DNA from: a virus
Lineage: Duplodnaviria > Caudoviricetes
Length of the DNA stretch: 54,019 nt
Reading direction: 5' to 3' (one strand)
Virus record (IMG/VR): IMGVR_UViG_3300038317_000315
Coordinates: 1-54,019 of that record
Of this stretch, positions 2,525 through 52,471 are shown one piece after another. Under the pieces are notes generated by a model, which was not told where the DNA came from, did not search any database, and saw nothing but the letters and a program-made list of their open reading frames with translations. The position numbers were made by a program, and so were the translations under genes. How positions within the stretch are numbered: position 1 is the first letter of the stretch; every line of letters starts with the position of its first letter.

Positions 2525-2948
2525 TGTCCAGTGGTACATTATTGATTGCACAATCCCCCATCACCATATTACGGAGATTAATTCTATGAAGTAAAAATGC
2601 TTCATACGGTTCTTTGTGCTCCTCTGAAAGAAATCCCAACTCAGCACTGTTGAACTCATTCAAAAGTTTTGATTCTTTTTCAAGAGGATAATATGATGCA
2701 AGTAATTCAGCAAAGATATTATCGGCGTTTTTCGCAAAATCACATCTGAGTGAATCATAACGATACATTTTATCAGCATTTTTATCATCAGCAATGACTG
2801 TTATACTCCCCTGTTCATCTTTTAAAACAGATACTTGATAAACGTTGTGATTGTAAAGAAATGATCCACGACCATTATTCAGATCATGAAAAGTATTAGG
2901 ACGTTTCTCTGAGAGTAACCCCAATGATAAGTTGTTTTCTTTTTTCAT
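2517..2948 (-). CDS. Hypothetical protein overlapping the RT 3' end (candidate DGR accessory)
   Basis: 143 aa ORF with helical C-terminal half; not recognisably Avd. Confidence 0.65.
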   Translation of the reverse strand: MKKENNLSLGLLSEKRPNTFHDLNNGRGSFLYNHNVYQVSVLKDEQGSITVIADDKNADKMYRYDSLRCDFAKNADNIFAELLASYYPLEKESKLLNEFNSAELGFLSEEHKEPYEAFLLHRINLRNMVMGDCAINNVPLDNE

Positions 2949-4047
2949 TATTAATGCAATTTTTTAATATGTAATTTTTATGAGGTTCAGAACATTTAAT
3001 AATCCATCCATACTCAGATGGAAAATGAACTTTAAAAGTGTCTAAATCTCTGATATTGTTTTCTTTCTTAACTCTAACATACTTTTTGTAAAATCTTTTT
3101 AGGATGCTTTTCCTCAAAAGAATGTTGTAATGGTTCATTTTAAACCCTACAAAGTCAATACTCCTTTCATCTACATCAAAGATCTGCCAGTCCTTTTTAA
3201 TGGTTAATTTTAATTCGGCACCTAAATACAACCCGATCATGTCAAGATAATAATGTAGTTGATCTTTATCATGATGCAATATCACCATATCATCCATGTA
3301 ACGGAAATAGTATCTTACGCCCAACTCTTCTTTCACCCAGTGATCAAAATATGCTAAATACAAATTAGCAAGGTATTGACTTGTATAATTACCAATTGGC
3401 AATCCTTTTTCAAGTCCGTTACTATCAATTATCTTATCTAATAATCTTAAGAACTGTTCATCAGCTATCCGGTAACGTATTATTCTTTTCAAACATGCAT
3501 GATCTATGTTATCATAGAACTTTTTCACGTCCATTTTCAAACAATACTTTGTACCCCGAAAATCATTGTTTAATGCTTTGGTGACATCATCAACACATTT
3601 ATGAATTCCACGTCCTTTGATGCAAGCATACGTAGTATTAATAAATACTTTAGTCCACGTCTTTTTCATTACGTTTATTATGCAATGGTGAACAATCCTA
3701 TCCGGATAAAAAGGTGCAATCATTATCTCCCTTTCTTTCGGTTCAGTAACAATTTTAATACGGTAGCCTCCCGGTTGATAGCTTTCATCTTCCAGTGAGT
3801 TATAGAGTTTTTGCATGTTCTCTATTATATTCTCATTAAATTTCTTTAATTCATTTGTTTGTTTTTTACCCTTTTGGGCTGAATGTTGAGATTTAATCAG
3901 ATTCTCAGTTGAAATTAAATGTATATACAGATTTTTCAACCTTTTACTGTTCTCAGGCTTAAACTCACAATCCTCGAAATCTTCATATTCGTAAAATCGT
4001 GTGTCCTTGCTGTAACAGTAACCGTATTTTGTTTTTATAATTCCCAT
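2896..4047 (-). CDS. DGR-type reverse transcriptase
   Basis: PFYPDRIVHH, LKMDVKKFYDNI, GLPIGNYTSQYLAN (SQ motif), catalytic YFRYMDD, DFVGF; no maturase or endonuclease domain; adjacent TR/VR pair. Confidence 0.97.
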   Translation of the reverse strand: MGIIKTKYGYCYSKDTRFYEYEDFEDCEFKPENSKRLKNLYIHLISTENLIKSQHSAQKGKKQTNELKKFNENIIENMQKLYNSLEDESYQPGGYRIKIVTEPKEREIMIAPFYPDRIVHHCIINVMKKTWTKVFINTTYACIKGRGIHKCVDDVTKALNNDFRGTKYCLKMDVKKFYDNIDHACLKRIIRYRIADEQFLRLLDKIIDSNGLEKGLPIGNYTSQYLANLYLAYFDHWVKEELGVRYYFRYMDDMVILHHDKDQLHYYLDMIGLYLGAELKLTIKKDWQIFDVDERSIDFVGFKMNHYNILLRKSILKRFYKKYVRVKKENNIRDLDTFKVHFPSEYGWIIKCSEPHKNYILKNCINNEKRKQLIIGVTLRETS

Positions 4048-4174: not shown

Positions 4175-4297
4175 AACGGTATAGGCGGAACCCATTGTTC
4201 GCATTCGAATTCGACGACCGATTATTCGTATTCAGATTACCGAACCCCGCATTCGCTCCATTATTCGCATTCGCAGAAAACAAGGCACCGAACCACC
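4175..4297 (-). repeat. DGR template repeat (TR)
   Basis: Non-coding 123 bp; reads WFGALFSANANNGANAGFGNLNTNNRSSNSNANNGFRLYR on the minus strand (12 AAY codons, 28 adenines); differs from both VRs only at adenines. Confidence 0.97.
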
Positions 4298-4359
4298 AAC
4301 CACCAAAAACCCAATATCTTTATTTTAAAAATCCCCCGTTGACCGATGACCGCTTTTCG

Positions 4360-5715
4360 CTAAAAACGGCACAGGCGGAACCCACTGTACGCAGGCGAAT
4401 ACGACGACCGATCAGTCGTATTCAGAGTACCGAACCCCGCAAGCGCTCCATGAGACGCAAGCGCAGAAAACAAGGCACCGAACCACCCTGTAACAGCATT
4501 TCCGGGCTGATAGTAATAGTCACATGCACCACTATTAGCACTACCACCAACTGATTGAGGGAATGAATAGCCTTTGTCAGAATGGCTTAATTGCAATATG
4601 TAACCATCTGATTTTGGTATATTGGCAATAGGCAAATAACCGTCAGGAACTGTAGTTGCTGAATCAGAGTGTGAAGTAAACTTAGTTGGATCTTCACAAA
4701 CGTATGCTACAGATAGATTTTTGTCTGTAACAGATGAGTGATGAATTAAAACATCATCAGCTAACATCCACAAATACTCATAAGGATTTTCAAAACCTCT
4801 GTAAGATGCAATTTGAACGACCTTATCAACACCATTAAAGTTTTTGATAGTGTAATTAACCCTACCTGTATTATTTCCCAGTGTTGCAGTAACTCCATTT
4901 GGCGCAAACGGATTATAAGCTCCCCATGCACTCCAATCAGCACCTAAAACAGCTGATCCACTCCCTAAACCCCCCTGTCTGAATCCATCAGCAGTTAAGG
5001 TTTCAATATACGTGTCCTGAGAATGTAAAGATGCATATTCACATCTTTGTAACCATGCAATCTCATTGTAAGCCCTGTATGCTCCATGATGAGTGCCGTT
5101 TTTGCAATATGATCTTACAGTGTTTTTTGCTACAGAAGTACGTGCAACTCCTAATTGAGAATTATATGTACCATCTTTAGTGGCATCATTACTCCCACCT
5201 CTGAATTGTGGTGCATTTGCTGTTAATTCAACAATTCCGTTTTCATCTCTTAAAACATCATTCCCATTCCACAAAAGGAATGATCCTGAAACAGCTGTAT
5301 TTGTTTCGTTGTCAAACGTTCCATACCATGGAGAAATAGCTTTACGCTCCATCTTTTTAAATCCGGGTAAAGGGTATTCCGAAAATGCACGGATCCACTT
5401 AGTACCCTGAATTTCCATCCTGAAATAATACTCAGGCTTTTCTAACATAACGTTACCATCAGTTGAATCAATAATAGCATTTGATCCACTTTCTCTTAAA
5501 CGGCTATCGTTTTGGTGCAAATAATATTTGACCGAGCCATCGAGATTCTCAACATAACGTCTTAACTTTTTCTGAATTGGTAGAGATCTGTGAAGATCTA
5601 AATTGCCTACTCTTGTCAACTTATAATCACTTGAAAGAAAGTCACCTTGAACTCCATACCAATGATCATAAGGAAATGTAGGCTTTGTGCTACCTGAACC
5701 AAATAATAATCCCAT
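4360..5715 (-). CDS. DGR target 1: putative receptor-binding protein with C-terminal CLec-like variable domain
   Basis: SYRGFENPYEYLW and terminal GFRLCRF motifs typical of CLec-fold DGR targets; located after the tail genes. Confidence 0.88.
   Translation of the reverse strand: MGLLFGSGSTKPTFPYDHWYGVQGDFLSSDYKLTRVGNLDLHRSLPIQKKLRRYVENLDGSVKYYLHQNDSRLRESGSNAIIDSTDGNVMLEKPEYYFRMEIQGTKWIRAFSEYPLPGFKKMERKAISPWYGTFDNETNTAVSGSFLLWNGNDVLRDENGIVELTANAPQFRGGSNDATKDGTYNSQLGVARTSVAKNTVRSYCKNGTHHGAYRAYNEIAWLQRCEYASLHSQDTYIETLTADGFRQGGLGSGSAVLGADWSAWGAYNPFAPNGVTATLGNNTGRVNYTIKNFNGVDKVVQIASYRGFENPYEYLWMLADDVLIHHSSVTDKNLSVAYVCEDPTKFTSHSDSATTVPDGYLPIANIPKSDGYILQLSHSDKGYSFPQSVGGSANSGACDYYYQPGNAVTGWFGALFSALASHGALAGFGTLNTTDRSSYSPAYSGFRLCRF
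4365..4487 (-). repeat. DGR variable repeat VR1
   Basis: Ungapped alignment to TR (offset 190); 17 mismatches, all at TR adenines; encodes the C-terminus of 4360..5715. Confidence 0.97.
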
Positions 5716-28784: not shown

Positions 28785-28810
28785 ATTCCTGTAATCTCAT
28801 AGTATAAACT

Positions 28811-28894
28811 GAACGTGCACCCCTGTGTATTAGTTGTAATGGCTAATACAGTTAAAATCCCGATGGATTACTTGACAGCAGGAAAGGCACGTTC
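28811..28894 (+). ncRNA. Putative structured antisense RNA (P1 C4 / P4 CI-like architecture)
   Basis: Closing stems GAACGTGC/GCACGTTC and CCTG/CAGG, inner hairpin 28826-28850, and segment 28859-28877 complementary to 28727-28744 and 28913-28926. Confidence 0.7.
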
Positions 28895-28911
28895 TTTTAT
28901 TTTAAATTATT

Positions 28912-42395: not shown

Positions 42396-42656
42396 TTATT
42401 CATGATCATTCATTTTAAAAATGTCTGATTTTTTTGTGCTTGGCAATTGTGGTTGCAAGGGATTATTGAAAGTCATAACAGCTAACCATAATTTCCCAAA
42501 CAACAACACTCTCAGCCTCTCAACGAATGAAAGTTTGTAACAGGTTACAACTACACCCTCATCCTGTGTTTTATCGTAATAAGCCGGTAATTGCCTATAT
42601 TCATCTTGATTCTCAGCGAAAACTACGTTTGATCCTTTAAATTTTATTGCTTTCAT
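42396..42656 (-). CDS. Phage hypothetical protein
   Basis: NVVFAENQDEYRQLPA...ERLRVLLFGKLWL. Confidence 0.7.
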   Translation of the reverse strand: MKAIKFKGSNVVFAENQDEYRQLPAYYDKTQDEGVVVTCYKLSFVERLRVLLFGKLWLAVMTFNNPLQPQLPSTKKSDIFKMNDHE

Positions 42657-42813
42657 TAGTACTCGTTTTTATCTTTAATATATAATGCAATAAAAATGAG
42701 TAGGTATATAACCGTTACTATTACTATTGCAATTGTTACCTCTCTCATGCTGGTATTACTGAAATCTGTTCTATCCAGCACCCATTTAGCAGCACCTCCC
42801 ACCATCATTAATT

Positions 42814-43365
42814 TCATCTATATAAGTTTGATTTAATGTTTGAAATTTTCATCGTATCTCTGTCATTTGGTCGGTTGTCACGCTCTTTAAAAGAATATGC
42901 CTGACTGACTGATTGCTCCTCAGCTTCTGAGCATCTCATTTGGTTGTACTTTGAAAACCATGAAAGAATTATCTGTCCATCCAGTCTATCATAGATCTGC
43001 CCGAATTCCCCCTTTTTTGCTTTCTTAAAAACTAAATTAATATCAGCAAGTGTAAAGTATGGATAATCATCTAAAACCATCTGAGCCGTTTCATAAACTT
43101 GATTACCATTCATGCCTTTACCAATATTTAGGAACTCACTAATATTAATAATCCATGTCTCCAAATACGCTTGAGCAAAATTATCACCATACACTTTTTT
43201 CACTGATCCAATTGTTGGTAAATTTGTAGCAAACACCTGAGCCGGTGTATTTATATTTCTACATACTTTTTGAACTTCAGGGATTTTGTAATCTGCTAAG
43301 AACCGATCTTTTGTAATCGTCGTCAATTCCGTGCTGGCGTGTAATTGTATTTCTTTTGTCTTCAT
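42814..43365 (-). CDS. Replication-associated protein (helicase loader/inhibitor-like)
   Basis: Directly downstream of the initiator; GEFGQIYDRLDGQIILSWF. Confidence 0.55.
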   Translation of the reverse strand: MKTKEIQLHASTELTTITKDRFLADYKIPEVQKVCRNINTPAQVFATNLPTIGSVKKVYGDNFAQAYLETWIINISEFLNIGKGMNGNQVYETAQMVLDDYPYFTLADINLVFKKAKKGEFGQIYDRLDGQIILSWFSKYNQMRCSEAEEQSVSQAYSFKERDNRPNDRDTMKISNIKSNLYR

Positions 43366-44083
43366 TTTTTATTATTTCGTCGTTCCAACTTTTATTGTTT
43401 AAAAATGTCTCCGGATTTTTTCTGTATTGCTTATTTGGTTGTGCAATTTTGTAGTGTGGAATATATTCCCTGATCTTCATTTTATCAGTATCAGATAATT
43501 TTCTCCATTTTGGAATCAATTTGTCTTTTTTCCCTACTTTCTTTTCATAGTCATTCCAAAATTCCTCAAAAGGATAAATATCATTTTCATCATCTGATCC
43601 TGGATTTTCTTTTTCCCCCATACCCCCTTTTAGACCATTACCTATACCATTACCATTACCTATACCATTACCTGTGCCCCTTTCAAGCCCCTTTAAAGGG
43701 GCTACGATGGGGCTTTCAATAAATATGTTAATGTCCTCAATATCAAACTTATGCTTATACAATTCAAAACGCCTCATAATTCCTATGTGTGCTTTGTTAT
43801 TTGGATTGAGTGGTATGTTTTTTTGATGCTTTAAAAAGTTCCGCAAATAAATTGCATCATGTTCTTTTGAGAAAACAATGCCCCTTTCAAGCCCCTTTAA
43901 TGCGGCTTCGATTGTGTCCGGGGTGCTGTTTAAATCAACTGCCCATCTCTTATAATTTATCTCAGCAAATCCGGCAATATCACAACTATCACATAGGTAC
44001 ATGAACAATAGCATTTCAATCTGTTTTAATGATGAAAACCAGTTGTCCTCCCATTTCTCTGTATTTGTGAATCTATATGCCAT
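43277..44083 (-). CDS. Replication initiator/replisome organizer
   Basis: N-terminal wHTH-like region, GNGIGNG linker, FEEFWNDY...YRKNPETFLNNKSWNDE. Confidence 0.8.
   Translation of the reverse strand: MAYRFTNTEKWEDNWFSSLKQIEMLLFMYLCDSCDIAGFAEINYKRWAVDLNSTPDTIEAALKGLERGIVFSKEHDAIYLRNFLKHQKNIPLNPNNKAHIGIMRRFELYKHKFDIEDINIFIESPIVAPLKGLERGTGNGIGNGNGIGNGLKGGMGEKENPGSDDENDIYPFEEFWNDYEKKVGKKDKLIPKWRKLSDTDKMKIREYIPHYKIAQPNKQYRKNPETFLNNKSWNDEIIKNEDKRNTITRQHGIDDDYKRSVLSRLQNP
43623..43900. repeat. Candidate replication origin iterons inside the initiator gene
   Basis: 22-bp direct repeat TGCCCCTTTCAAGCCCCTTTAA (43675-43696, 43879-43900); perfect palindrome AGCCCCTTTAAAGGGGCT (43686-43703). Confidence 0.6.
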
Positions 44084-44135
44084 AATTTTATTTGTAATAT
44101 TCCTGAGTGCTTTTACACACCCAGGAATTGATTAT

Positions 44136-44891
44136 TTAAACCTCCAAAATTGCTATCTCAGGTGCAATCTCCTTGATGTCGTTAAGTACGTTATCAATGC
44201 ATGTATCACGATAAGCCTGTGTGATCTCATTTGCACCCGGAGAAACAAGTTGTAGGTAAACTTTACCATCCATCACATAGTGGTCAAATTCGACCTCTAT
44301 TAGTTGTTTTTCGGTGCCTTTGAAGATTTGCAACTCAACCGCAAAACTCTTTGGCAAATTGCTCTCAACTTGCGATCTGTAAACATCAGCTGTAGATCCT
44401 GAGGGATCACGGTGTTTTTGAATCTCAGTATTAGCTTTTGCAGTGAAGTTTTTCAGGTTAGATACCATCTTCATGCAGGTTTCTTTGTTTTGGAATACAC
44501 CTCTGTTAAGCCTCAGGAATTGCCCTAATTTGTTAGGATCCCATCCTACAGATTCATTATTAATTCCGAACTTTTCGTACACTTCGGAAAACTGAACAGA
44601 TCCGGACAAAGTGTTTTTTGTGTAAAACTCATCTTCGTTAATAGTGAGTGTGATTTTCATCTTTTCTCTATCAACTACGATGTTTGCTCTTTTCTGATCA
44701 ATCGTATCGATTCTCTTTTCAAGCCATCTGAAAGGCAGATCAATAACTCCGCTGATATTAATCTTTTCAGGTTCTTTAGTTGGAAGTGGCTGAGTTGCTT
44801 TTGATGCTTCGCCCTCTCTTAAGATCACTTCTACTGGTTGTGTGGGTGCTTGTCCATTGAAGTTTATTAGAACTTTAGAATCTTTTTCCAT
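44136..44891 (-). CDS. Phage hypothetical protein
   Basis: 251 aa clean ORF in the early operon. Confidence 0.75.
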   Translation of the reverse strand: MEKDSKVLINFNGQAPTQPVEVILREGEASKATQPLPTKEPEKINISGVIDLPFRWLEKRIDTIDQKRANIVVDREKMKITLTINEDEFYTKNTLSGSVQFSEVYEKFGINNESVGWDPNKLGQFLRLNRGVFQNKETCMKMVSNLKNFTAKANTEIQKHRDPSGSTADVYRSQVESNLPKSFAVELQIFKGTEKQLIEVEFDHYVMDGKVYLQLVSPGANEITQAYRDTCIDNVLNDIKEIAPEIAILEV

Positions 44892-44923
44892 TTGAGTTTA
44901 ATTTTTAAATGATTGTTAATTAT

Positions 44924-45355
44924 TTAATCGAACGTTCCTGTTTTCTTTACTTGAAATATACTACGTTGCTTTTCATCCGGTCTCATTGTTCTTTCCTCCA
45001 AAAGAACGCCCTCAGGTGAATAGATACCCACCATTTGCAAATCATGATCAATGATTTTAAAACATTCACCTTTGATGAATTCACCACCGGCTTTTAACTC
45101 TGCTAAAATCGTTTTCAATTCTTCCTCTACAGGTTTGATTCTTGCTTTGTATTCAGCCTTAATTGCTCTGATCTCATCCTCATGTTCTGATTTTTGGATT
45201 GACAACTCTACCATCTCTTTGCTTCGCTCATCACGTTCCTCTTGTGTGAATCTACGTGTGTAGTGCCTTTCTTGGATCTGATCACAACTATCACGTAACA
45301 CTTGTGCCCTTTCATGTACAGGGAGATCCGCCAACATCAATTCTTGCATTGCCAT
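44924..45355 (-). CDS. Coiled-coil hypothetical protein
   Basis: 143 aa, starts 3 nt after the stop of DGR target 2. Confidence 0.75.
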   Translation of the reverse strand: MAMQELMLADLPVHERAQVLRDSCDQIQERHYTRRFTQEERDERSKEMVELSIQKSEHEDEIRAIKAEYKARIKPVEEELKTILAELKAGGEFIKGECFKIIDHDLQMVGIYSPEGVLLEERTMRPDEKQRSIFQVKKTGTFD

Positions 45356-45358
45356 AAC

Positions 45359-45922
45359 TTAAATATTAAAAAGTAAATAATCTGCCCATAATTCAATAAA
45401 TTTCCTCCCAAAATAGGTTGCTTTTTCTTCTGTTTCTTGGCACAGGCGGAACCCAGAGTTCGCACCCGAATTCGACGACCGATAAGCCGTATGCAGACAA
45501 CCGAACCCCGCACCCGCTCCAGCATACGCACTCGCAGAAAACAAGGCACCGAACCACAACGATTTACGCTGATCATCATCCATCTGATCAATCTCATCCT
45601 GAGTGTATAAAGCGAACCACGGATAGTAGTATGTTTTATCTCCGGTAGCATCTGGTAATGGTTTAAAATTTGTTCCCCATAATGCAAGTGAAATAGTTTT
45701 TAATTTCATGTATGCTACAACGTCTTTTGCCAAACCTGTAAAATCCTGTTCCGGTTCTCCTGTAGCTATGCAAGCATCTTTATAGGTTTTAATTGTTTTG
45801 TAATTACTCAGTGTCGGATTTTCTTGTTCACCAAACAGTATTTTTAATACTGTTTTTGTCTCATCATTTGCCACTTCTAAAGCAGCGTTAATCTGATCTC
45901 TTGTTACTTGAACTGTTCCCAT
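45359..45922 (-). CDS. DGR target 2: small early-region protein with internal variable repeat
   Basis: Contains VR2 (WFGALFSASAYAGAGAGFGCLHTAYRSSNSGANSGFRLC) followed by 26 more residues; no signal peptide. Confidence 0.92.
   Translation of the reverse strand: MGTVQVTRDQINAALEVANDETKTVLKILFGEQENPTLSNYKTIKTYKDACIATGEPEQDFTGLAKDVVAYMKLKTISLALWGTNFKPLPDATGDKTYYYPWFALYTQDEIDQMDDDQRKSLWFGALFSASAYAGAGAGFGCLHTAYRSSNSGANSGFRLCQETEEKATYFGRKFIELWADYLLFNI
45439..45557 (-). repeat. DGR variable repeat VR2 (remote)
   Basis: 119-bp ungapped match to TR 4178-4296; 18 mismatches, all at TR adenines. Confidence 0.96.
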
Positions 45923-45926
45923 TAAT

Positions 45927-46097
45927 TTAATTTGTTTGTGTTGTTAATAATTTTTTCACGAATTTTCCACCCTCACCACGAATTGGCTTCCATACTCTCA
46001 ATTCAGCTTCGAGATGCTGAACTTTGCTTTCTAACTTTGCAATTTTCTGATCTTTCTCAGTAATTGCGCTTTTTCTCACGATGCGAAACTTTGCCAT
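45927..46097 (-). CDS. Small basic coiled-coil protein (56 aa, not in the ORF track)
   Basis: MAKFRIVRKSAITEKDQKIAKLESKVQHLEAELR...; fills an operon gap. Confidence 0.55.
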   Translation of the reverse strand: MAKFRIVRKSAITEKDQKIAKLESKVQHLEAELRVWKPIRGEGGKFVKKLLTTQTN

Positions 46098-46120
46098 AAT
46101 GAATTTTAATTTAAAAGTGT

Positions 46121-46555
46121 TTAATTGTTGATATTATTTTGTTTCCAAAATTTGTCCGGATCAGGTATTTCGATATTGAGAAATTCATTCCCATATTCTC
46201 TCAATTTTTCACAATATGTAGCAAAGGTTAAAGTGTCCATTTGTGAAGTGCTTCCGGGAAACTCTATAATCTCACCGGTATGTTTGTTCACCACTTTATC
46301 CGATGTCATTTGCGACTTGAAAAACTCATGCACTTGTTCTGAATCAGTGAATTCCCACCCAGCCTCATTAAGTGCATCTAAAAGCATAGGATAAATACAT
46401 CCCCATAACCAACCGTTCTGGTCGTTTGTACGTGGTTTACGAATCGTTTTAATGCTGATCTGATACTTTCCATCCTGAGATGTTCGGAGAAGATCATACA
46501 AAGGCTTTAAATTGAATAAACCGCTTATCTTTTCTATGAGGATCTTTTTAACCAT
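46121..46555 (-). CDS. NinB/Orf-like recombination accessory protein
   Basis: KPRTNDQNGWLWG...VHEFFK...STSQMDTLTF..Y...IEIPDP. Confidence 0.65.
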   Translation of the reverse strand: MVKKILIEKISGLFNLKPLYDLLRTSQDGKYQISIKTIRKPRTNDQNGWLWGCIYPMLLDALNEAGWEFTDSEQVHEFFKSQMTSDKVVNKHTGEIIEFPGSTSQMDTLTFATYCEKLREYGNEFLNIEIPDPDKFWKQNNINN

Positions 46556-46558
46556 TTC

Positions 46559-46921
46559 TCAATACATTACATTCATTTGATTTTCCATTGCAACCCTGAC
46601 TGCCTTTATTGCATTTTCACGACCTTTAAGGCTGCTTATATAATCCACCAGTTCGTTTTTTGATTCGGCTATATAGTAACCGTTGCTCGTTGCCATCAAC
46701 CCGATAACTAAATTTTTTACCCGGATGTGATTAATGATTTTTCTAAGCCTTGCACCATCAATTAGATAACCTTGTTTTTTCAAGCATCTACAGATGTGTG
46801 AATTTGTAACGGCATTTTCTTTACCTACCTTGTATGTCAATCCTAAGATCACTACAGGAAGTAATTCATTTTGCTCATACTCATTAAGTATCTCTGTCTG
46901 TTGTTCAAATCCTTTCAGCAT
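46559..46921 (-). CDS. Winged-helix DNA-binding protein
   Basis: GKENAVT...ARLRKIINHIR...ATSNGYYIA. Confidence 0.65.
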   Translation of the reverse strand: MLKGFEQQTEILNEYEQNELLPVVILGLTYKVGKENAVTNSHICRCLKKQGYLIDGARLRKIINHIRVKNLVIGLMATSNGYYIAESKNELVDYISSLKGRENAIKAVRVAMENQMNVMY

Positions 46922-46933
46922 AACTCTATCGTT

Positions 46934-47695
46934 TTAAAATGGTGTTCTACCAAAATTTAATGTCATTCCTTTTTCAGCTACATTCACAACCTTACCGGTT
47001 AAATCCTGAACTCCTTTTTTGAACTCATATGCATTACTATTTGCACTTGAAAGATGGATCAGCACGATATTGTGAACTGCTGTCAGATCATTCGCTTTAA
47101 GCGTTTTTATGCATGTGTCGTAACTCATGTGTGACTGAATAGTCCTTTTGAGTAGAAAAGGCTGTATATTCCCTTTCATCATGTTGTTCTGTAGAATATC
47201 ATCCCTGTAATTACATTCTATCATGATATTGTTAAGTCCTTGGAACTTATATTTCAGATAATAGGTATCAGTTGCAAATAACGTTGTACCCATTTCAGGG
47301 TGATAAATCAAGAATCCTAACGGTTCAGCACAATCATGTTGCACGTCAAAGGGAATTACCCGGAATGCACCGATTGTATTTTGCACTCCTTTTTGCAGTT
47401 CATTAATCATGCTACTACCTCTGTATCTATCAATCTTCATTTTTTGAGATAGTGCTTCAAACGTACCCTTTGATCCGTACACCTTAATACGTGCGTCCAT
47501 GAAGTCAATTGCGTATGCGCTGTGATCCATGTGTTCATGTGAAATCAAGCATCCATTGATGCGTGAAATATCAAAATCTATCGCTTGTTTCACTTCTTTA
47601 AATCGAACACCAGCCTCGATAACAAGGGCATCAGTGCCATTGTCAAGTATGTAGCAATTGCCGGCTGAACCGCTATTTAGGATTCCTAATTTCAT
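46934..47695 (-). CDS. MBL-fold metallo-hydrolase
   Basis: SGSAGNCY, ISHEHMDHS, HDCAEP, ATDT, IECNY, LIHLS; probable start 47695. Confidence 0.9.
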   Translation of the reverse strand: MKLGILNSGSAGNCYILDNGTDALVIEAGVRFKEVKQAIDFDISRINGCLISHEHMDHSAYAIDFMDARIKVYGSKGTFEALSQKMKIDRYRGSSMINELQKGVQNTIGAFRVIPFDVQHDCAEPLGFLIYHPEMGTTLFATDTYYLKYKFQGLNNIMIECNYRDDILQNNMMKGNIQPFLLKRTIQSHMSYDTCIKTLKANDLTAVHNIVLIHLSSANSNAYEFKKGVQDLTGKVVNVAEKGMTLNFGRTPF

Positions 47696-47895
47696 TTTTC
47701 TACTTTTACTGAGTAATAGAATTTCCCGTTTATCATCATCCTTAATTGCCAACCCAAAAAGAAAGATGCGGGTCTGACAAAATATCTATCTCTGGCTTTC
47801 CAAATAACAGACTTCTGTTCAAGTGCAAGCCTTTGAATTTCTCTTAGGTCTGTTATTTGTTCGCCTTTGTATATGTTCTTGCTTACCTTTTCCAT
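47692..47895 (-). CDS. Hypothetical protein
   Basis: Coupled between recT and the MBL gene. Confidence 0.6.
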   Translation of the reverse strand: MEKVSKNIYKGEQITDLREIQRLALEQKSVIWKARDRYFVRPASFFLGWQLRMMINGKFYYSVKVEK

Positions 47896-48839
47896 TAGAA
47901 ACCGGGCATTGTTTGTTGACCTGCTTTTTGAGCCTGTTTAGGTTGTTTTTCAGGCTCTGCCTGAGGACCTTCATTTGCTTCATCAGCTTCTTTTATTTCA
48001 CCTGTCTCAGGATCTACAATATCACTTGCCTCAGTTGAATGAGTTATTTGCTCATCTACCAAATCCACAAATGAGATTTCCTCAATATTTGAGTTTTGAT
48101 CTATTTCCCTTTGAACCGGGTTAAGATCATCATTCTCATCACCAGAATACAATACGCTATCATCTGAACCTCTGATAAGTAGCTTACAGGCTCGGTTAAT
48201 AACTGTTTTCATTGCCATCTGATCCGGGAAGTTTTTATGAGCGGGTGAATTCCCTTTCATGGCTCCCTGATTCCATGCATCCCGAATCTGAACCATTGAC
48301 ATTACCTCAACATCTGTTGTTCCATCTTCAAGCTGATAAATGGCATAGGCTCCCTTTAGATTTTTGCTGCCAATTGATTCAAGGCTTTGAATATGCTTTA
48401 CAATTTTTTTGCAACCTGTTTCCGCATCTACATGAAATTCAAATTCATCTTTTTCAAAAATGGCATTTGCTTTAATCCATTTCAGATTTCCGTATCTCTT
48501 AGCTAAAACTATATTTCCAGTGTACTCAGGAGTACATTCCAGTTTATCCCCATAAGGGATAAAATCACACTGTTTTTTAAGTGGAGATAAACCCCACACT
48601 ACCATTTTCAAAAGTGCGTTTGCAACGCTTTCCTTGGTACACTTTGCCAGTAAGTTGCTACGTGGATCTGTAAGAACTAAATAGGCACTCTTCAATGCAT
48701 TTTCAGGGCTATAATCCTTTGGGATCCTGAGTTCACCTGATTTTTGAAATGTATCGACTTTTGCCAATACCTGAGCGGAAATATCCTTTTTCACTAATTC
48801 CACGCTCTGAGTTGTTTGTTGAGTTGTAGTAGTTGACAT
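47895..48839 (-). CDS. recT: RecT-family ssDNA annealing protein
   Basis: CTKESVANALLKMVVWGLSP.KKQCDFIPYG; FPDQMAMKTVINRACK. Confidence 0.88.
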   Translation of the reverse strand: MSTTTTQQTTQSVELVKKDISAQVLAKVDTFQKSGELRIPKDYSPENALKSAYLVLTDPRSNLLAKCTKESVANALLKMVVWGLSPLKKQCDFIPYGDKLECTPEYTGNIVLAKRYGNLKWIKANAIFEKDEFEFHVDAETGCKKIVKHIQSLESIGSKNLKGAYAIYQLEDGTTDVEVMSMVQIRDAWNQGAMKGNSPAHKNFPDQMAMKTVINRACKLLIRGSDDSVLYSGDENDDLNPVQREIDQNSNIEEISFVDLVDEQITHSTEASDIVDPETGEIKEADEANEGPQAEPEKQPKQAQKAGQQTMPGF

Positions 48840-48844
48840 AAAAT

Positions 48845-50809
48845 TTAATTTTTAATTGTTAATTTATCCTCTGAAACTTTCAGGTTTATAATTTGTGCAT
48901 CCGTATCTATAATTTTATTTACAGATTCTCTGTTATCTAAAAATATTGGTGCAATAACACCGTAATGTTTTGATAGCGCATTGATAATATCAAGCCCGGC
49001 ATTGAGTTGTCCTGCTGTATTTGCTGCTGGGAAAGGAACACCGTTTACAAGCGGAATGCAAGTTTCATTCTCAGTGTTATCCTCAATTGTATAGGAGAAA
49101 AGTTTAAATGTCACGAAACTGAAAAGTCCATTGATCCGGGAATCAACATCATCTACTTTTGTTTTTGTGAAAGCTTTGATTGTCAACTCGATGTTCTGAT
49201 AATCAGCAATCAATTGTGATAGATCCTTTGCCTCTTTTTCAAGTCTTTCAATCTCAGCCTTTTTCTCACTGATTATTTGCCTTGTATGCAATTGTTCTTT
49301 TAGGCTGTCTATTTCACTTACAATCTCAGCTTTTTGATTCTTTAACTCTGAATCATCAACCGCCTCAGGTGTAAAATTCTTTATATTTTCTTCAAATGCA
49401 GAAATCTTTTCTGTAAGTTTTACGTAATCCGGGATAGTTTGGGGATCCACTTCTACAAAGTCAACAAATGTGATTTTGCTCAACTTGTTTTCAAGTAGAA
49501 TCTTTTCTTCATTTAGTTCATCAATTTTGATTTGATTCTCTTTGATCTGATCCTCACACTTTGCGATTTTTTCTTTTGCCTCAGCGATATTTGTATTGAT
49601 CTGAGTACCTTTCATGGTAATCTCATTCAACTTATTTGCTTTGCTATCCTGAAAGATCTGTTTAGCTTTATCCATCATTTTAACAGGCAAAGGCTGTCCA
49701 CAATGATTACAATCAGTTTCACCGTTATACTCTTTAGCATTCTCAGCAAACCATTGATTCCTCAGATCATCAGCCTTTAGTGTTTCCCTGTTTATATAAT
49801 CCTGATATGCTTTAATATCATTATTAAGGTATTTGATCTGATCCTCAATACTCCGTATCTTCATATCAATGCTTACTATATCAGTGGCAACATTTTTGCG
49901 ATCCTGATTTGCATTGTTAACACGATCCCTCTCAGATTGATTTGCATCAAATAAAAGCTGCTGTCTCTCTTGTTTCAGACTGTTTACAACCCTTTGTTTT
50001 TCTTGAATATCTTTGAACTTAAGTTTCTCAGCTTCATGCTTTGAGTAGATGGCATTGTCAATTTCGGTGATCCGATTTTGTTTGGCTTTGATCAGATCCT
50101 CTATAGCTGTAAAATCAAGTGCATCAGGCATCCTTTTATTTTCCTGATCAATGCGAGGCTGAACATCCCTTAATTGCTCCTTTGCTTTGTTTATTTTAGA
50201 GACTATCTCTTTTCTGTAGTCTCTTAATGATTTACCGGAAATAGAATCCAAAAGGGCTTTAAATGCTTCATTTTTATCAGCGATCTCATCATCTGACAAA
50301 CACCCGGCTATCTGAAACAGTTGCTCTCTTTGTTGTTCCCAGCCCATGTTTGCAAAAAATAAAGGATTTGTGATCATCTTAAATACAGTTGAATCAATAA
50401 TTTCATTGATCTTTCTGTCATAATCAGTCACATTCATAGGAACTTCATTAAAAGTCGTAACCGTTTTATTCCCTTTGAATTTTTCCTCAGCTATACCTTT
50501 ATCTTTACTCCATCTCTCAACTAATTGTCGCCTTAGCGTTATGATCTCACCGTTTATTTCCAATACACCAGTTACAGACACCTCTGTTTTTGGAACTGAT
50601 TCGCCATTTATAAGTCGTTTGACCTCATAATCTTTGCGATCCTGAACGTCTTTCCCAAAAAGCAACCACATAAAAGCATCAAAGATTGTTGATTTCCCGG
50701 TACCATTGTCTCCGGAAATGAATGTTTGCTTTTCATTGAAAACCACCTTTTTATCGGAAAACTGTTTAAAGTTTTCAAGGTGTAGGCTCTTTAAAATGAT
50801 CTTTTTCAT
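48845..50809 (-). CDS. SMC/Rad50-like AAA ATPase
   Basis: Walker A GDNGTGKST, coiled coils, CNHCGQ zinc hook, PIFLDNRESV. Confidence 0.9.
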   Translation of the reverse strand: MKKIILKSLHLENFKQFSDKKVVFNEKQTFISGDNGTGKSTIFDAFMWLLFGKDVQDRKDYEVKRLINGESVPKTEVSVTGVLEINGEIITLRRQLVERWSKDKGIAEEKFKGNKTVTTFNEVPMNVTDYDRKINEIIDSTVFKMITNPLFFANMGWEQQREQLFQIAGCLSDDEIADKNEAFKALLDSISGKSLRDYRKEIVSKINKAKEQLRDVQPRIDQENKRMPDALDFTAIEDLIKAKQNRITEIDNAIYSKHEAEKLKFKDIQEKQRVVNSLKQERQQLLFDANQSERDRVNNANQDRKNVATDIVSIDMKIRSIEDQIKYLNNDIKAYQDYINRETLKADDLRNQWFAENAKEYNGETDCNHCGQPLPVKMMDKAKQIFQDSKANKLNEITMKGTQINTNIAEAKEKIAKCEDQIKENQIKIDELNEEKILLENKLSKITFVDFVEVDPQTIPDYVKLTEKISAFEENIKNFTPEAVDDSELKNQKAEIVSEIDSLKEQLHTRQIISEKKAEIERLEKEAKDLSQLIADYQNIELTIKAFTKTKVDDVDSRINGLFSFVTFKLFSYTIEDNTENETCIPLVNGVPFPAANTAGQLNAGLDIINALSKHYGVIAPIFLDNRESVNKIIDTDAQIINLKVSEDKLTIKN

Positions 50810-50820
50810 TTTGAGTAATT

Positions 50821-51102
50821 TTATTTGTTAATTATTTTGTTAAGTCTCTCAGCTTTTTCTACAGAAATTAATTCAGCTTTTGAATAAAGGATCTTTGACT
50901 GTTTGCTTTTACCACTTCTGGTTTTAGTGATAATCCCATCTTTTACCCATCTCTTTACACGTGCCTCTCCGAAGTGCTGATAAGCTTCTCTTTGTGAAAG
51001 ATTATCATTTGCCGGGGAAAGTGTTTTTGCGTAATTCGCGGCTCCCAACTCAGCCATATCCTGGCATATATTTTTTATCTCGTATAATTGGAGGGTTATC
51101 AT
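50821..51102 (-). CDS. Excisionase-like HTH protein
   Basis: LSQREAY..FGEARVKRWVKDGII...ILYSKAEL; probable start 51102. Confidence 0.6.
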   Translation of the reverse strand: MITLQLYEIKNICQDMAELGAANYAKTLSPANDNLSQREAYQHFGEARVKRWVKDGIITKTRSGKSKQSKILYSKAELISVEKAERLNKIINK

Positions 51103-51323
51103 GTGAACTGTTTTAATAATTGTGCATCCTGATAATATTCCTGTAATTTTCTGTGGTATATTGCAATGTCTGTAATTACTAAAGAGTTGCATAGCTCACT
51201 ATCCTTAATCACTGTAAGTATGTTTTCTGTTATATGATATGAAACTTTGATGCGATCTGACATTACATGAATTATCAGATTGGCTTCTATATCATAGACT
51301 ATTGACCATCTGAATGCTTTCAT
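51099..51323 (-). CDS. Hypothetical protein
   Basis: ATGA-coupled on both sides. Confidence 0.55.
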   Translation of the reverse strand: MKAFRWSIVYDIEANLIIHVMSDRIKVSYHITENILTVIKDSELCNSLVITDIAIYHRKLQEYYQDAQLLKQFT

Positions 51324-51547
51324 ATCACATCATCAAAAAGTTGACTTTCAGGTATATTCAGATGCTTCGATAGTATTACTCTATCCTGCTTGTCAGGTTT
51401 TTGAGTTCCGGCTATCCAGCATCTTACTGTTTTCTCAGATTTATAGCATAGTTTTGCGATTTCTCTCACGAATTTTGTTTTCGGTGCTATTTCTGCTTTT
51501 CTTGGTAAAGCATCATAATGAGCCTTAAACTGATTTATTTTCTCCAT
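51320..51547 (-). CDS. Cro-like HTH regulator
   Basis: IAKLCYKSEKTVRCWIAGTQKPD; divergent from the repressor. Confidence 0.8.
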   Translation of the reverse strand: MEKINQFKAHYDALPRKAEIAPKTKFVREIAKLCYKSEKTVRCWIAGTQKPDKQDRVILSKHLNIPESQLFDDVI

Positions 51548-51570
51548 TTTACAGATATATTTAAAATGTT

Positions 51571-51661
51571 TGTATATATTTGCGACGTAATGTATATTAT
51601 TACGCTACAAATATACAGAATTATTTTCTGTAATAGCAATAAATACCGATATTATTTCTGT
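51571..51661. promoter_or_regulatory. Lysis-lysogeny switch: face-to-face -7 boxes and two candidate operators
   Basis: Plus TATATTTG 51575-51582; minus TATATTTG 51608-51615; ACAGAA-N5-TTCTGT at 51615-51631 and a variant at 51645-51661. Confidence 0.65.
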
Positions 51662-51727
51662 GCTTAAATAGTTAAATAATGTTACATTGCACAATATTAG
51701 ACACTTAACAAATAAAATTAAAAACAA

Positions 51728-52471
51728 ATGACTGGGGTGAAAGAAAGAGTTCTTGAATTCTTGAACTACCTCCAATTATCACAGGGCAAGTTTGAAGAAG
51801 CTGTAGGATTAAGCAACGGTTTTGTAAATAACATTGGTGATACAATTAGGGAAAGTTCAATAAAAAAGATTAAAAATCGGTACCCGGATCTAAATGAAGT
51901 CTGGTTAAAAACAGGATCCGAAAAAATGCTGATAAGTGAAACTGAAAAAATTGATTATGAAACTGAGGACTATGTAAAGATTATTGACACTCAGGAAATG
52001 TATGAAAAAGCAATTAAAATGGGAATGCATCTAATACCTGAAAAAAATGTATTCTTCCAAGGAGGCTCCGAAATTGCAGTCAACGATGAAACAGAGTACA
52101 TAACACGCTATTGGCACATTCCCGATTCTGAGGATTGTACTACTGTGATAACAATGAGTGGCAATTCAATGGGGCATGTTGTGCCAAATGGCACTAAATT
52201 AGCTTTAAAACCATTGGGATGGGATCCAAACTATCCAAATGAAATACCGTTCGGTTCAATCTTTGCAATTATGGTTGAGGATCGCACAACAGGAATATAT
52301 CATGGACATATAAAGTATCTAAGGAGACATCCGGATCCGGAACGCTGTAACTCATGTTGGATTGCAAGAAGTGAGGATAAAGTTAACTATGATGATTTTG
52401 AAATAGACATTTCGCTTGTACGTGGTCTATGGATTGTTAAGGAATACATGATTAAAACAACTGTTCTGTAA
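51728..52471 (+). CDS. CI-like repressor (HTH + S24 peptidase-like domain)
   Basis: LSQGKFEEAVGLSNGFV...LNEVWLKTG; MSGNSMG and HIKYL in the C-terminal domain. Confidence 0.85.
   Translation: MTGVKERVLEFLNYLQLSQGKFEEAVGLSNGFVNNIGDTIRESSIKKIKNRYPDLNEVWLKTGSEKMLISETEKIDYETEDYVKIIDTQEMYEKAIKMGMHLIPEKNVFFQGGSEIAVNDETEYITRYWHIPDSEDCTTVITMSGNSMGHVVPNGTKLALKPLGWDPNYPNEIPFGSIFAIMVEDRTTGIYHGHIKYLRRHPDPERCNSCWIARSEDKVNYDDFEIDISLVRGLWIVKEYMIKTTVL

What the first reader, a model, noticed from the sequence alone, without database searches (positions are those of the whole stretch)
45359..45922. One DGR template diversifies a second, remote target in the early replication/recombination operon
Seen: 45439-45557 aligns without gaps to TR 4178-4296 with 18 mismatches, every one at a TR adenine. 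Its substitutions differ from VR1 (SASAYAGAG...GCLHTAY vs SALASHGAL...GTLNTTD), so it looks independently retrohomed rather than copied from VR1. The gene is 41 kb from the RT (about 13 kb plus flanks around a circularised genome). It lies between a NinB-like gene and the replication initiator, encodes 187 aa with no signal peptide, and resembles target 1 only in the VR. Established: phage DGRs (Bordetella BPP-1 mtd) classically mutate virion receptor-binding proteins, and multi-target or remote-target DGRs have been reported. Inference: this is a hypervariable intracellular early protein, possibly binding host defence or host-takeover proteins, so one retroelement would tune both adsorption and an intracellular interaction.
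Basis: partly seen in the sequence, partly recalled or inferred. Interest (0 to 1): 0.93.

Follow-up and report, generated by a model that had tools for sequence, protein, structure and literature searches.

The report
Second, remote DGR target in phage early operon
A phage's mutagenic retroelement rewrites its tail protein and also a small soluble protein encoded among its early recombination and replication genes; this is real and ongoing, but the same arrangement, in the same protein family, is already published and what the small protein binds is still unknown.

Summary
VR2 (45439-45557, minus strand) aligns without gaps to the template repeat (4178-4296). It has 18 mismatches, all at template adenines (chance P about 1e-14). 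The pattern differs from VR1's.

VR2 lies in a 187-aa, acidic protein with no signal peptide (phrog_11581). The gene is packed between NinB and the replication initiator.

The site is in use:
- A relative with 87% flank identity matches this template at 91 of 91 non-adenine sites.
- 11 of 11 related IMG/VR contigs that hold both genes show template, VR1 and VR2.
- Nine near-identical Versailles-type genes carry nine different VR2s.

It is not new. The homologue in LoVEphage is itself a second target. From its gene neighbourhood I infer it is the non-structural second target of Quimbyvirus (Benler 2021). Two-target phage DGRs were also reported by Dahlman 2025, and shown experimentally in Roseburia phage Shimadzu (Cornuault 2019).

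- The family is large (566 clusters at 50% identity).
- Its gene neighbourhood is conserved.
- AlphaFold2 gives a helical scaffold with no PDB match and leaves the variable region unmodelled, so a C-type lectin fold is not shown.

The function is inferred only. Verdict: new member of a known kind.

The parts
2896..4047 (-). DGR reverse transcriptase (383 aa)
   Evidence: Pfam RVT_1 E 6e-18. phrog_1423 'Reverse transcriptase' E 8.8e-121. 359 relatives in IMG/VR, of which the best 80 were kept. In 69 of the 81 RT loci examined (those 80 plus L131), my script found a 90-199 nt direct repeat pair upstream of the RT.
4178..4296 (-). Template repeat (TR). It has 28 adenines, 26 of them at codon positions 1 and 2, in 12 AAT and 1 AAC codon. 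Its 3' end carries the IMH*-like CTATACC.
4297..4367 (-). 71-nt spacer between VR1 and TR. It has no room for an Avd gene.
   Evidence: The same 71-nt spacing is seen in contigs of three other runs (table 5).
4350..4369 (-). 8-bp hairpin with a 4-nt loop directly after the 3' end of VR1
   Evidence: DNA fold centroid structure. It is not significant against shuffles of the whole 89 nt (z -0.61). No equivalent follows VR2 (z +1.88).
4368..4486 (-). VR1, the 3' end of target gene 1
   Evidence: 17 of 17 mismatches to the TR are at adenines.
4360..5715 (-). Target 1, a 451-aa tail-module protein
   Evidence: phrog_5302 'tail protein' E 1e-109. It lies downstream of the large tail genes and is syntenic with the Versailles 'tail protein' gene next to its RT.
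45439..45557 (-). VR2, the remote variable repeat (residues 123-161 of target 2). It is followed by 26 more codons of the same ORF (residues 162-187).
   Evidence: 18 of 18 mismatches at TR adenines, in the same reading frame as VR1. It varies between runs and between close relatives.
45439..45455 (-). 3' boundary of VR2 (IMH-like, GGGTTCCGCCTGTGCC). It is identical to that of VR1 (4368-4384) and differs from the TR at 2 positions.
   Evidence: The same TTTTACC to TTGTGCC type of difference is shared by VR1 and VR2 in Versailles and in 10 of the 11 IMG/VR triples. In the eleventh (L038/L120) only VR1 shows it, because VR2 loses register there.
45359..45922 (-). Target 2 gene: 187 aa, 21 kDa, pI 4.8, family phrog_11581
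   Evidence: phrog_11581 E 4.4e-58 over residues 2-186. No Pfam hit at E up to 10. 1259 proteins at E<=1e-3. 566 clusters at 50% identity.
45927..46097 (-). 56-aa ORF between NinB and target 2. Its stop lies 4 nt before the target 2 start codon.
   Evidence: No PHROG hit. An ORF of 162 nt occupies the same place in Versailles.
46121..46555 (-). NinB/Orf recombination mediator
   Evidence: phrog_72 E 2.3e-22. It lies directly upstream of the target 2 homologue in 36 of 40 related loci.
44924..45355 (-). 143-aa protein, phrog_12688 (unknown function). It starts 3 nt after the target 2 stop codon.
   Evidence: E 7.9e-51. It lies downstream of the homologue in 36 of 40 loci, and is also present 7 kb away in LoVEphage.
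44136..44891 (-). 251-aa protein, phrog_11501 (unknown function; weak DUF2303 match)
   Evidence: E 5.7e-107. Downstream in 35 of 40 loci.
43277..44083 (-). Replication initiation protein
   Evidence: phrog_270 E 4.9e-19.
46934..50809 (-). Upstream early genes: SbcC-like (48845-50809), RecT-like (47895-48839) and metal-dependent hydrolase (46934-47752)
   Evidence: phrog_77, phrog_148 and phrog_392. The order is the same in Versailles.

Best explanation
The window is a Bacteroidota-type temperate siphophage (an IMG/VR provirus, 94% complete). It is syntenic with Bacteroides phage Versailles.

Shown: its diversity-generating retroelement (RT 2896-4047, TR 4178-4296) writes adenine-mutagenised copies of one template into two genes.
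- VR1 lies at the 3' end of a tail-module protein, 71 nt from the TR.
- VR2 lies 41 kb away, inside a 187-aa protein of the early recombination/replication block.
- Both VRs share the same 5' homology, the same 3' boundary (which differs from the TR at two bases and would set the direction of transfer), and the same reading frame.
- The 13 AAY codons can become 15 different residues each and never a stop. That gives about 15^13, or 2e15, possible VR2 peptides (my arithmetic).
- VR2 is rewritten repeatedly in nature.

Inferred:
- The protein is cytoplasmic and made early in lytic growth.
- It is built from a conserved, mostly helical scaffold that presents a roughly 30-residue hypervariable segment.
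- It acts as a diversifiable binder of a variable intracellular partner, most likely a host defence or host factor, or a competing phage's protein.
- One retroelement would thus tune both adsorption and an intracellular interaction.

I put the DGR-target part at above 0.95 and the intracellular-binder part at about 0.5.
For: Adenine specificity in the window:
- 18 of 18 mismatches (VR2) and 17 of 17 (VR1) are at TR adenines, P about 1e-14 and 1e-13.
- Adenines sit at codon positions 1, 2 and 3 in counts of 13, 13 and 2, and both VRs are in the same frame.

Independent writing: only 2 of the 11 sites mutated in both VRs carry the same base.

The window's own lineage:
- Metagenome locus L137 has 87.4% nucleotide identity in the rest of the gene. 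Its VR2 equals this TR at 91 of 91 non-A sites and differs at 19 A sites.
- P0003 (91% identical) differs at 17 residues, 13 of them in the 29-residue VR stretch.
- Contigs of 4 runs from 4 studies that are anchored in the unique flanks carry different VR2s.
- Long contigs break at the VR2 edge (X2: a 20.7-kb contig ends at 45556 and an 8.5-kb contig starts at 45533).
- A non-A change (45469 A>C) is present in both the TR piece and the VR2 contig of X2.

Relatives:
- The Versailles orthologue (53% identical, same gene order) is VR2 of Versailles's own, different TR. It has 14 A-site mismatches plus the shared boundary change.
- 11 of 11 IMG/VR contigs found with both the homologue and a related RT have TR, VR1 and VR2. 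VR2 mismatches are 131 of 144 at A, and purely at A in 9 of 11.
- Among 9 Versailles-type genes, pairs differ on average at 15.4 of 22 A sites, against 1.0 of 86 non-A VR sites, 3.5 of 249 upstream sites and 1.6 of 105 downstream sites. There are 9 distinct VR2s among the 9.
- The LoVEphage homologue has 19 of 20 mismatches at A.

Cytoplasmic early protein:
- No hydrophobic N-terminus or membrane segment, pI 4.8.
- Gaps of 3-4 nt to the neighbouring ORFs, in a minus-strand block with SbcC, RecT, NinB and the replication initiator.
- This neighbourhood is conserved in 35-36 of 40 related loci.

Scaffold: two AlphaFold2 runs give pLDDT of 88-97 for the 10-residue blocks spanning residues 11-80, and below 50 for 124-154 (first run) and 124-156 (second run).
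Against: - No expression, localisation or binding data exist for this protein. 'Early' and 'cytoplasmic' rest on gene position and on the absence of export signals.
- The promoter and terminator scan gave nothing above shuffles.
- The fold of the variable segment is unknown (pLDDT below 50 in both models). No C-type lectin or other binding fold was recovered: 0 Foldseek matches in the PDB at E<=0.001, and no significant PDB or Pfam sequence match.
- Distant homologues (31% identical; L047-L050) carry an identical, shorter segment in 4 of 4 contigs, with no RT found in those contigs, which are 54-77% complete. The scaffold can therefore work without hypervariation.
- In Roseburia phage Shimadzu, the authors saw weaker selection on VR2 than on VR1 and judged the gene less essential (passages of bioRxiv 10.1101/575076).
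- 2 of the 11 related triples have non-A mismatches in VR2 (L022: 2; L038: 11, after a 3-nt insertion). One homologue (L044) is frameshifted inside the VR.
- No Avd-like accessory gene was found by Pfam at E up to 1.
Confidence: 0.8

Rival explanations
1. Collateral or weakly selected targeting. The scaffold protein has a DGR-independent job in the early recombination/replication block. Its VR-like segment merely tolerates being overwritten because it carries the homing boundaries. Variation is neutral drift through sequence space, not tuning of an interaction.
For: - Distant family members have an invariant segment in 4 of 4 contigs, with no RT found.
- VR2 A sites look near-saturated, with no dominant allele among 9 Versailles-type genes.
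- Shimadzu VR2 showed no dominant allele in one virome, and every isolate carried a different allele (passages of 10.1101/575076).
Against: - The two-target layout, the in-frame AAY design and the boundary motif are kept in lineages whose target 2 proteins are only 37-55% identical and whose TRs differ.
- Only 1 of 40 homologues is frameshifted.
- The non-variable VR residues (G, A, GFG, L, RSS, GFRLC) are conserved.
Confidence: 0.15
2. Target 2 is a virion-associated, ejected or otherwise extracellular binding protein that happens to be encoded outside the structural module. Both targets would then act at adsorption or entry.
For: - The VR peptide is 70% identical to that of the tail-module target.
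- The Versailles orthologue is annotated 'tail protein'.
- Virion proteomics was not available.
Against: - That annotation rests only on the VR stretch: phrog_5302 matches residues 121-162 at E 1.7e-8, whereas phrog_11581 matches the full length at E 4e-58.
- There is no signal peptide or membrane segment.
- The gene is embedded among recombination and replication genes in 36 of 40 loci, and among methyltransferase, PAPS reductase and tRNA ligase genes in LoVEphage.
Confidence: 0.1
3. VR2 is a fossil: one past homing event or an old duplication, no longer rewritten.
For: A single genome cannot show turnover. VR2 lacks the hairpin that follows VR1.
Against: - Different VR2 alleles sit in flank-anchored contigs of 4 runs.
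- L137 matches the TR at 91 of 91 non-A sites despite 12.6% flank divergence.
- A TR-level substitution is also present in VR2 of X2.
- There are 9 distinct VR2s in 9 near-identical Versailles-type genes.
Confidence: 0.03

Closest known systems
Second, non-structural DGR target of Quimbyvirus, 'Quimbyviridae' (Benler et al. 2021, Microbiome, PMC8008677; passages read). Equating Quimbyvirus with LoVEphage is my recall.
   Same: - One phage DGR has one VR in a tail-module gene and a second VR in a small gene far from the RT, in a non-structural region. The authors suggest a role in phage-host conflict.
- The window's protein is 37-40% identical over 98% of its length to the LoVEphage protein.
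- That LoVEphage gene is itself a VR of LoVEphage's own TR, with 19 of 20 mismatches at A.
- It sits near methyltransferases and a tRNA ligase, as the paper describes.
   Different: - Here the gene lies in the SbcC/RecT/NinB/replication-initiator block, not in a methyltransferase island.
- The VR ends in GFRLC rather than GSRLA.
- The RT is a single ORF, whereas the paper reports three overlapping frames.
- The paper calls both targets C-type lectin proteins. I could not reproduce that here.
Bacteroides phage Versailles (ON453897), gene WAK79127, annotated 'tail protein'
   Same: Syntenic orthologue, 53% identical, with the same order SbcC-RecT-hydrolase-NinB-small ORF-target 2-two unknowns-replisome organiser. 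It is VR2 of Versailles's own TR.
   Different: - The TR sequence differs.
- Nothing about its DGR turned up in search 19: no paper held 'phage Versailles' together with 'DGR', and I opened neither of the two papers listed.
- The 'tail protein' label is explained by VR-only similarity.
Four gut prophage species with a second VR distal to the RT cassette (Dahlman et al. 2025, Nature, PMC12629997; passages read)
   Same: A remote second VR was found by BLAST of the TR, lies near counter-defence genes, and is interpreted as part of the phage-host arms race.
   Different: - I could not see Extended Data Fig. 3c or Supplementary Table 3, so I cannot say whether those targets belong to this family.
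- The four runs that I laid are labelled bioreactor, riverine and biofilm metagenomes, not gut.
Roseburia phage Shimadzu VR2 in orf43 (Cornuault et al. 2019, bioRxiv 10.1101/575076; passages read)
   Same: Two VRs are served by one TR, one in a tail gene and one in a gene of unknown function. Both were shown by read analysis to be diversified in culture and in mice.
   Different: - The host is a Firmicutes bacterium.
- Homology of orf43 to this family was not tested. tblastn of P0001 against 50,697 phage records found only 8 Bacteroides or Phocaeicola phage records.
Bordetella phage BPP-1 Mtd DGR (the archetype; recalled, and cited)
   Same: TR-to-VR adenine mutagenesis, AAY codons, and a VR-specific 3' boundary versus the TR.
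   Different: - BPP-1 has a single target, a virion receptor-binding protein with a solved C-type lectin fold, and an Avd gene.
- Here there are two targets, no Avd was detected, and the fold of target 2 is unresolved.

Membership tests
DGR variable (target) protein | The VR is nearly identical to a TR in the same genome, with differences confined to TR adenines | tested here: met
   18 of 18 mismatches at A, P 1.4e-14.
DGR variable (target) protein | A reverse transcriptase gene lies next to the TR | tested here: met
   RVT_1 and phrog_1423; the RT gene starts 131 nt downstream of the TR end. Placement in the DGR clade of RTs was not tested by phylogeny. It is implied by a repeat pair upstream of the RT in 69 of 81 RT loci examined.
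DGR variable (target) protein | A VR-specific 3' boundary (IMH) that differs from the TR (IMH*) | tested here: met
   Both VRs read CCTGTGCC where the TR reads CCTATACC. An equivalent difference is shared by VR1 and VR2 in Versailles and in 10 of 11 related triples; in L038/L120 it is seen in VR1 only. Its function was not tested.
DGR variable (target) protein | Adenines sit at codon positions 1 and 2 (AAY), in frame, so that no stop codon can arise | tested here: met
   Counts of 13, 13 and 2 by codon position; 13 AAY codons; same frame in both targets.
DGR variable (target) protein | The VR varies between members of a population while its flanks do not | tested here: met
   for this lineage; for the Versailles group. 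These are between-sample data from contigs. Within-sample raw reads were not available.
DGR variable (target) protein | The VR lies in a C-type lectin (or Ig-like) fold | tested here: inconclusive
   Two AlphaFold2 models are mostly helical, with the VR at pLDDT below 50. Foldseek against the PDB gave 0 matches at E<=0.001. There was no significant PDB profile hit and no Pfam hit at E up to 10. My own reading is that the sequence motifs (TYxDAC, YYPWF, RSS, GFRLC) resemble FGE-type lectin targets. Benler 2021 reports lectin domains in both Quimbyvirus targets.
DGR cassette | An accessory variability determinant (Avd) gene | tested here: not met
   The 71-nt VR1-TR spacer has no room for one. 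ORFs around the cassette (2517-2948, 2135-2551, 1553-2074, 5831-6070, 6093-6572) gave no Avd-type Pfam hit at E up to 1 and, for 2517-2948, no PDB hit. By recall, Avd is not universal in DGRs.
phrog_11581 (unknown function) | A full-length match to the family profile | tested here: met
   E 4.4e-58, residues 2-186 against profile positions 2-194 of 200.
Phage tail protein (phrog_5302) | A match beyond the VR segment | tested here: not met
   Only residues 121-162 match the last 42 profile positions. BLASTP against target 1 aligns only residues 123-162.

The most novel reading that the evidence does not exclude
The phrog_11581 family could be a dedicated, widespread class of small cytoplasmic 'antibody-like' phage proteins built on a scaffold that is not a canonical C-type lectin. 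The family has 566 clusters at 50% identity, and the structure search also turned up weak matches among crAss-like viruses. In this reading the DGR reprogrammes the variable loop to bind changing host defence proteins or rival-phage proteins, and DGR-free members carry fixed specificities.

A bolder add-on is that variable repeats can move between the two targets. One Logan contig of run X2 carries, next to its TR, 118 nt identical to this window's VR2.
Probability: 0.2. Interest if true: 0.75.

Novelty: new member of a known kind. Interest (0 to 1): 0.38.

Why it matters
Phage DGRs are usually read as host-range devices that act on the virion. A second, conserved target among early intracellular genes suggests that phages may also use programmed hypermutation inside the cell, possibly against host defences. 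That idea is already published, so this window adds a case and not a concept.

The useful additions are practical:
- The target belongs to a large, well-delimited family with a conserved neighbourhood (NinB upstream, phrog_12688 and phrog_11501 downstream).
- Cultivable phages (Versailles, LoVEphage isolates, BI-TP1, PV4-TP1) carry orthologues, so the function can be tested directly.
- DGR-free relatives with a fixed segment exist for comparison.
- The 'tail protein' label on the Versailles orthologue is best explained by similarity confined to the VR.

Tried and rejected
- An exact search for an 86-nt core of the window's VR2 found 0 matches in viral contigs, metagenome contigs and genome contigs. 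I therefore could not learn in which flank context that allele occurs elsewhere.
- L051 (RT 91% identical) starts just downstream of the TR, so it gave no TR or VR1 for the nearest relative.
- I looked for a VR1 in one contig identical to a VR2 in another among IMG/VR relatives (69 VR1s against 38 VR2s). The closest cross pair differs at 9 of 100 nt, which is the background level. There is thus no support for VR exchange in that set.
- Pfam on 55 family members gave only scattered single hits, best E 0.005. The ESM Atlas returned only 'hypothetical protein' clusters. Foldseek against BFVD returned only uncharacterised phage proteins.
- The sigma-70 promoter and terminator scan of 42500-52800 found no more sites than in shuffles. 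Bacteroidota promoters are not covered by that tool.
- The scan's notes hold nothing on this genome or on look-alike sequences.
Full report
**1.

All parts lie on the minus strand. TR 4178-4296 and VR2 45439-45557 align without gaps over 119 nt. There are 18 mismatches, every one at a plus-strand T, which is a coding-strand adenine of the template. VR1 (4368-4486) has 17 mismatches, all at adenines.

The TR holds 28 adenines in 119 nt. The chance that all 18 mismatches fall on them is 1.4e-14.

Twenty-six of the 28 adenines are at codon positions 1 and 2, in 12 AAT codons and 1 AAC codon. Both VRs are read in the same frame.

Two of the 18 differences (TR 4180 and 4182) are the same A-to-G change in both VRs, at the 3' end of the repeat. 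I read these as the fixed VR-versus-TR boundary (IMH versus IMH*, terms recalled from the BPP-1 literature), not as mutagenesis.

Of the 11 other sites changed in both VRs, only 2 carry the same base. So VR2 was written independently of VR1.

The record contains only these three copies. The two target proteins are alike only over the 40-residue VR stretch.

**2. The surroundings**

The record is an IMG/VR provirus, 94% complete, with a GC content of about 36%.

- The RT (2896-4047) matches RVT_1 and phrog_1423.
- Target 1 (4360-5715) matches phrog_5302 'tail protein' over its whole length.
- Target 2 (45359-45922) matches phrog_11581, of unknown function, over its whole length at E 4e-58. It matches phrog_5302 only across the VR.

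Around target 2, all on the minus strand and with gaps of a few bases, lie the following:
- an SbcC-like protein;
- RecT;
- a metal-dependent hydrolase;
- phrog_2113;
- NinB;
- a 56-aa ORF;
- target 2;
- phrog_12688;
- phrog_11501;
- a replication initiation protein.

An integrase is at the right end.

Target 2 is 21 kDa with pI 4.8. Its N-terminus is not hydrophobic, and the highest 19-residue hydropathy window scores 1.14.

The consensus promoter and terminator scan was uninformative.

**3. Relatives show a conserved two-target design**

tblastn against 50,697 phage records found 8 records, all Bacteroides or Phocaeicola phages: Versailles at 53% identity, and LoVEphage, BI-TP1 and PV4-TP1 at 37-40%.

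Versailles has the same gene order. Its orthologue is VR2 of Versailles's own, different TR, with 14 A-site mismatches plus the boundary change it shares with its VR1.

In LoVEphage OY731433 the homologue is again a VR of that phage's TR. For VR2, 19 of 20 mismatches are at A; for VR1, 17 of 19.

In IMG/VR, 44 loci encode a relative of target 2, and 359 stretches encode a relative of the RT, of which the best 80 were kept. Eleven contigs appear in both lists. All 11 have TR, VR1 and VR2.
- VR2 mismatches are 131 of 144 at adenines.
- They are purely at adenines in 9 of the 11.
- L022 has 2 non-A differences.
- L038 has 11, after a 3-nt insertion that shifts the register.

NinB lies directly upstream in 36 of 40 close loci, phrog_12688 downstream in 36 and phrog_11501 in 35. 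The misses are mostly loci cut by contig ends, plus L023, L040 and L043, which lack the two downstream genes.

**4. VR2 is in current use**

Nine Versailles-type genes (8 IMG/VR contigs plus Versailles) were compared in all 36 pairs.
- Pairs differ on average at 15.4 of the 22 A sites.
- They differ at only 1.0 of 86 non-A VR sites, 3.5 of 249 upstream sites and 1.6 of 105 downstream sites.
- All 9 VR2s are distinct.
- L009 against L014 or L016 shows 15-17 A-site differences and none anywhere else.

In the window's own lineage:
- Metagenome locus L137 is 87.4% identical in the rest of the gene, yet its VR2 equals this window's TR at 91 of 91 non-A sites and differs at 19 A sites. At the flank divergence, about 11 non-A differences would be expected. 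VR2 is therefore kept in step with a conserved template.
- L136 follows a different template backbone, with 11 non-A differences.
- P0003 (91% identical) differs from the window's protein at 17 residues, 13 of them in the 29-residue VR stretch.

Logan contigs of four runs from four studies (X2, X3, X4, X8) were laid on 44900-46600.
- Contigs anchored in the unique flanks carry different VR2s.
- Long contigs break at the VR2 edge.
- Of the 11 listed variable places inside VR2, 10 are template A sites. The eleventh (45469 A>C) is a non-A change present in both the TR piece and the VR2 contig of X2. For X3 the two contigs that show it are the VR2 contig and the VR1 piece, because its TR piece does not reach that site.

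There are three caveats. Only the 40 best-supported of 195 differences were printed. Contigs from the TR and VR1 locus also lie on VR2 and add to those rows. Contigs cannot show within-sample variation.

**5. The protein**

The family is large: 1259 proteins at E<=1e-3 among 1307 candidates at 90% clustering, and 566 clusters at 50% identity, 181 of them at E<=1e-10. Most members are 150-220 aa and align over their whole length.

There is no Pfam family, no PDB sequence match and no named Atlas cluster.

Two AlphaFold2 runs, on 55-sequence and 140-sequence alignments, agree.
- Mean pLDDT is 79 and pTM 0.71.
- Helices lie at residues 8-17, 20-30, 47-54, 66-82, 108-113, 116-121, 165-174 and 176-182.
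- The 10-residue blocks spanning residues 11-80 have pLDDT of 88-97.
- The variable segment 124-156 is below 50.

Foldseek found no PDB match at E<=0.001 (best E 5.8). In BFVD it found only uncharacterised phage proteins.

A C-type lectin fold is therefore not shown here. The conserved motifs (TYxDAC, YYPWF, RSS, GFRLC) resemble FGE-type lectin targets in my own reading, and Benler et al. report lectin domains for both Quimbyvirus targets.

Four distant relatives (31% identical; L047-L050) carry an identical, shorter segment. No RT was found in their contigs, which are only 54-77% complete. The scaffold can therefore exist without hypervariation.

**6. How it most likely works**

Shown: one TR and RT supply adenine-mutagenised copies to two in-frame targets that share the homing boundaries. 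Thirteen AAY codons allow about 15^13 VR2 peptides without stop codons.

Inferred: target 2 is a cytoplasmic early protein whose variable segment binds a changing intracellular partner.

Rivals:
- neutral or weakly selected targeting (0.15);
- a virion or extracellular role (0.10);
- a fossil repeat (0.03).

A small hairpin follows VR1 (4350-4369) but nothing comparable follows VR2. If such hairpins aid homing, as recalled for BPP-1, VR2 may be rewritten less efficiently. This was not tested.

No Avd gene was detected.

**7. What is already known**

- Benler et al. 2021 (passages) described the Quimbyvirus DGR with one VR after the tail-fibre genes and a second in a non-structural gene near a nuclease, methyltransferases and a tRNA ligase. 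They proposed a role in phage-host conflict. The LoVEphage neighbourhood fits that description, and its target is a homologue of the window's protein.
- Dahlman et al. 2025 (passages) reported four prophage species with a second VR distal to the RT, near counter-defence genes.
- Cornuault et al. 2019 (passages) showed by read analysis that both VRs of Roseburia phage Shimadzu are diversified, with weaker selection on VR2.
- Notes of this scan on other genomes reached the same verdict. They led me to the Cornuault paper, and I do not count them as evidence.
Benler's Additional files 9-10 and Dahlman's Extended Data Fig. 3c and Supplementary Table 3 may already list this family.
- Paper search found no paper that holds both 'phage Versailles' and 'DGR'.

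**8. Verdict**

The mechanism is standard DGR homing to a remote second target. The protein family is conserved and of unknown function.

This is a new member of a known kind. Interest is moderate to low (0.38), because the concept, the family's best-known member and an experimental demonstration in another phage are all in print. The open and testable question is what the protein binds.

Noticed in passing
window 45439-45556, against a Logan contig of run X2 (record 2): A 445-nt contig of run X2 reads as follows: 142 nt upstream of the TR, then a TR piece (17 differences from the window's VR2), then 71 nt (the length of the window's TR-VR1 spacer), then 118 nt identical to the window's VR2. 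So in X2 the repeat at the VR1 position carries this window's VR2 allele. It also lacks the C that X2's TR and VR2 share at 45469. Possible explanations are transfer of a VR between the two targets, a chimeric k-mer contig, or a mis-join in the window's assembly.
   Followed up: partly
L044 2762-3357; L038 3001-3606; protein P0091: Imprecise events occur inside VR2 of relatives. L044 is frameshifted within the VR. L038 has one extra residue near the 3' end of the VR. P0091 carries a partial internal duplication of the VR.
   Followed up: no
L047-L050 (31% identical homologues): Four contigs carry the same scaffold protein with an identical, shorter segment in place of the VR. No RT was found in these contigs, which are 54-77% complete. 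They are possible DGR-free members of the family.
   Followed up: partly
L001 8001-8582 (Versailles WAK79127): This small early-operon gene is annotated 'tail protein'. For the window's orthologue, the tail family phrog_5302 matches only the 42-residue VR stretch, while phrog_11581 matches the full length. The label therefore looks like an artefact of the shared VR.
   Followed up: yes
window 2135-2948 (-): Two conserved ORFs follow the RT and overlap it or each other: phrog_11557 (143 aa) and phrog_29953 (138 aa). Both are of unknown function, and Versailles has ORFs in the same places. No Avd-like gene was detected anywhere near the cassette. One of these ORFs could be an unrecognised accessory factor.
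   Followed up: partly
L002 837-2258 and 8001-8585 (LoVEphage OY731433): Homologues of the window's two downstream neighbours (phrog_12688 and phrog_11501, 35-38% identical) are also present in LoVEphage, but about 6-7 kb upstream of its target 2 gene. The three genes therefore co-occur even when they are not adjacent.
   Followed up: no
L002 10889-10994 (LoVEphage record 57700-57805): The deposited annotation lists a 5S ribosomal RNA (a barrnap call) inside the phage genome, 2.3 kb downstream of the second DGR target.
   Followed up: no
L051 (contig start), table 8: Assemblies break at the repeats. The contig with the nearest RT (91% identical) begins just downstream of the TR, and contigs of X2 and X4 end or start at the VR2 edges. 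Catalogues built from such contigs will under-report two-target DGRs.
   Followed up: partly
window 23767-29909 (+): A block of plus-strand ORFs interrupts the otherwise minus-strand genome between the head and packaging modules. This shows in the ORF list and as a GC-skew sign change. Versailles has an oppositely oriented block in the equivalent place, with an ADP-ribosylglycohydrolase and a DNA methyltransferase. I did not annotate the window's block.
   Followed up: no
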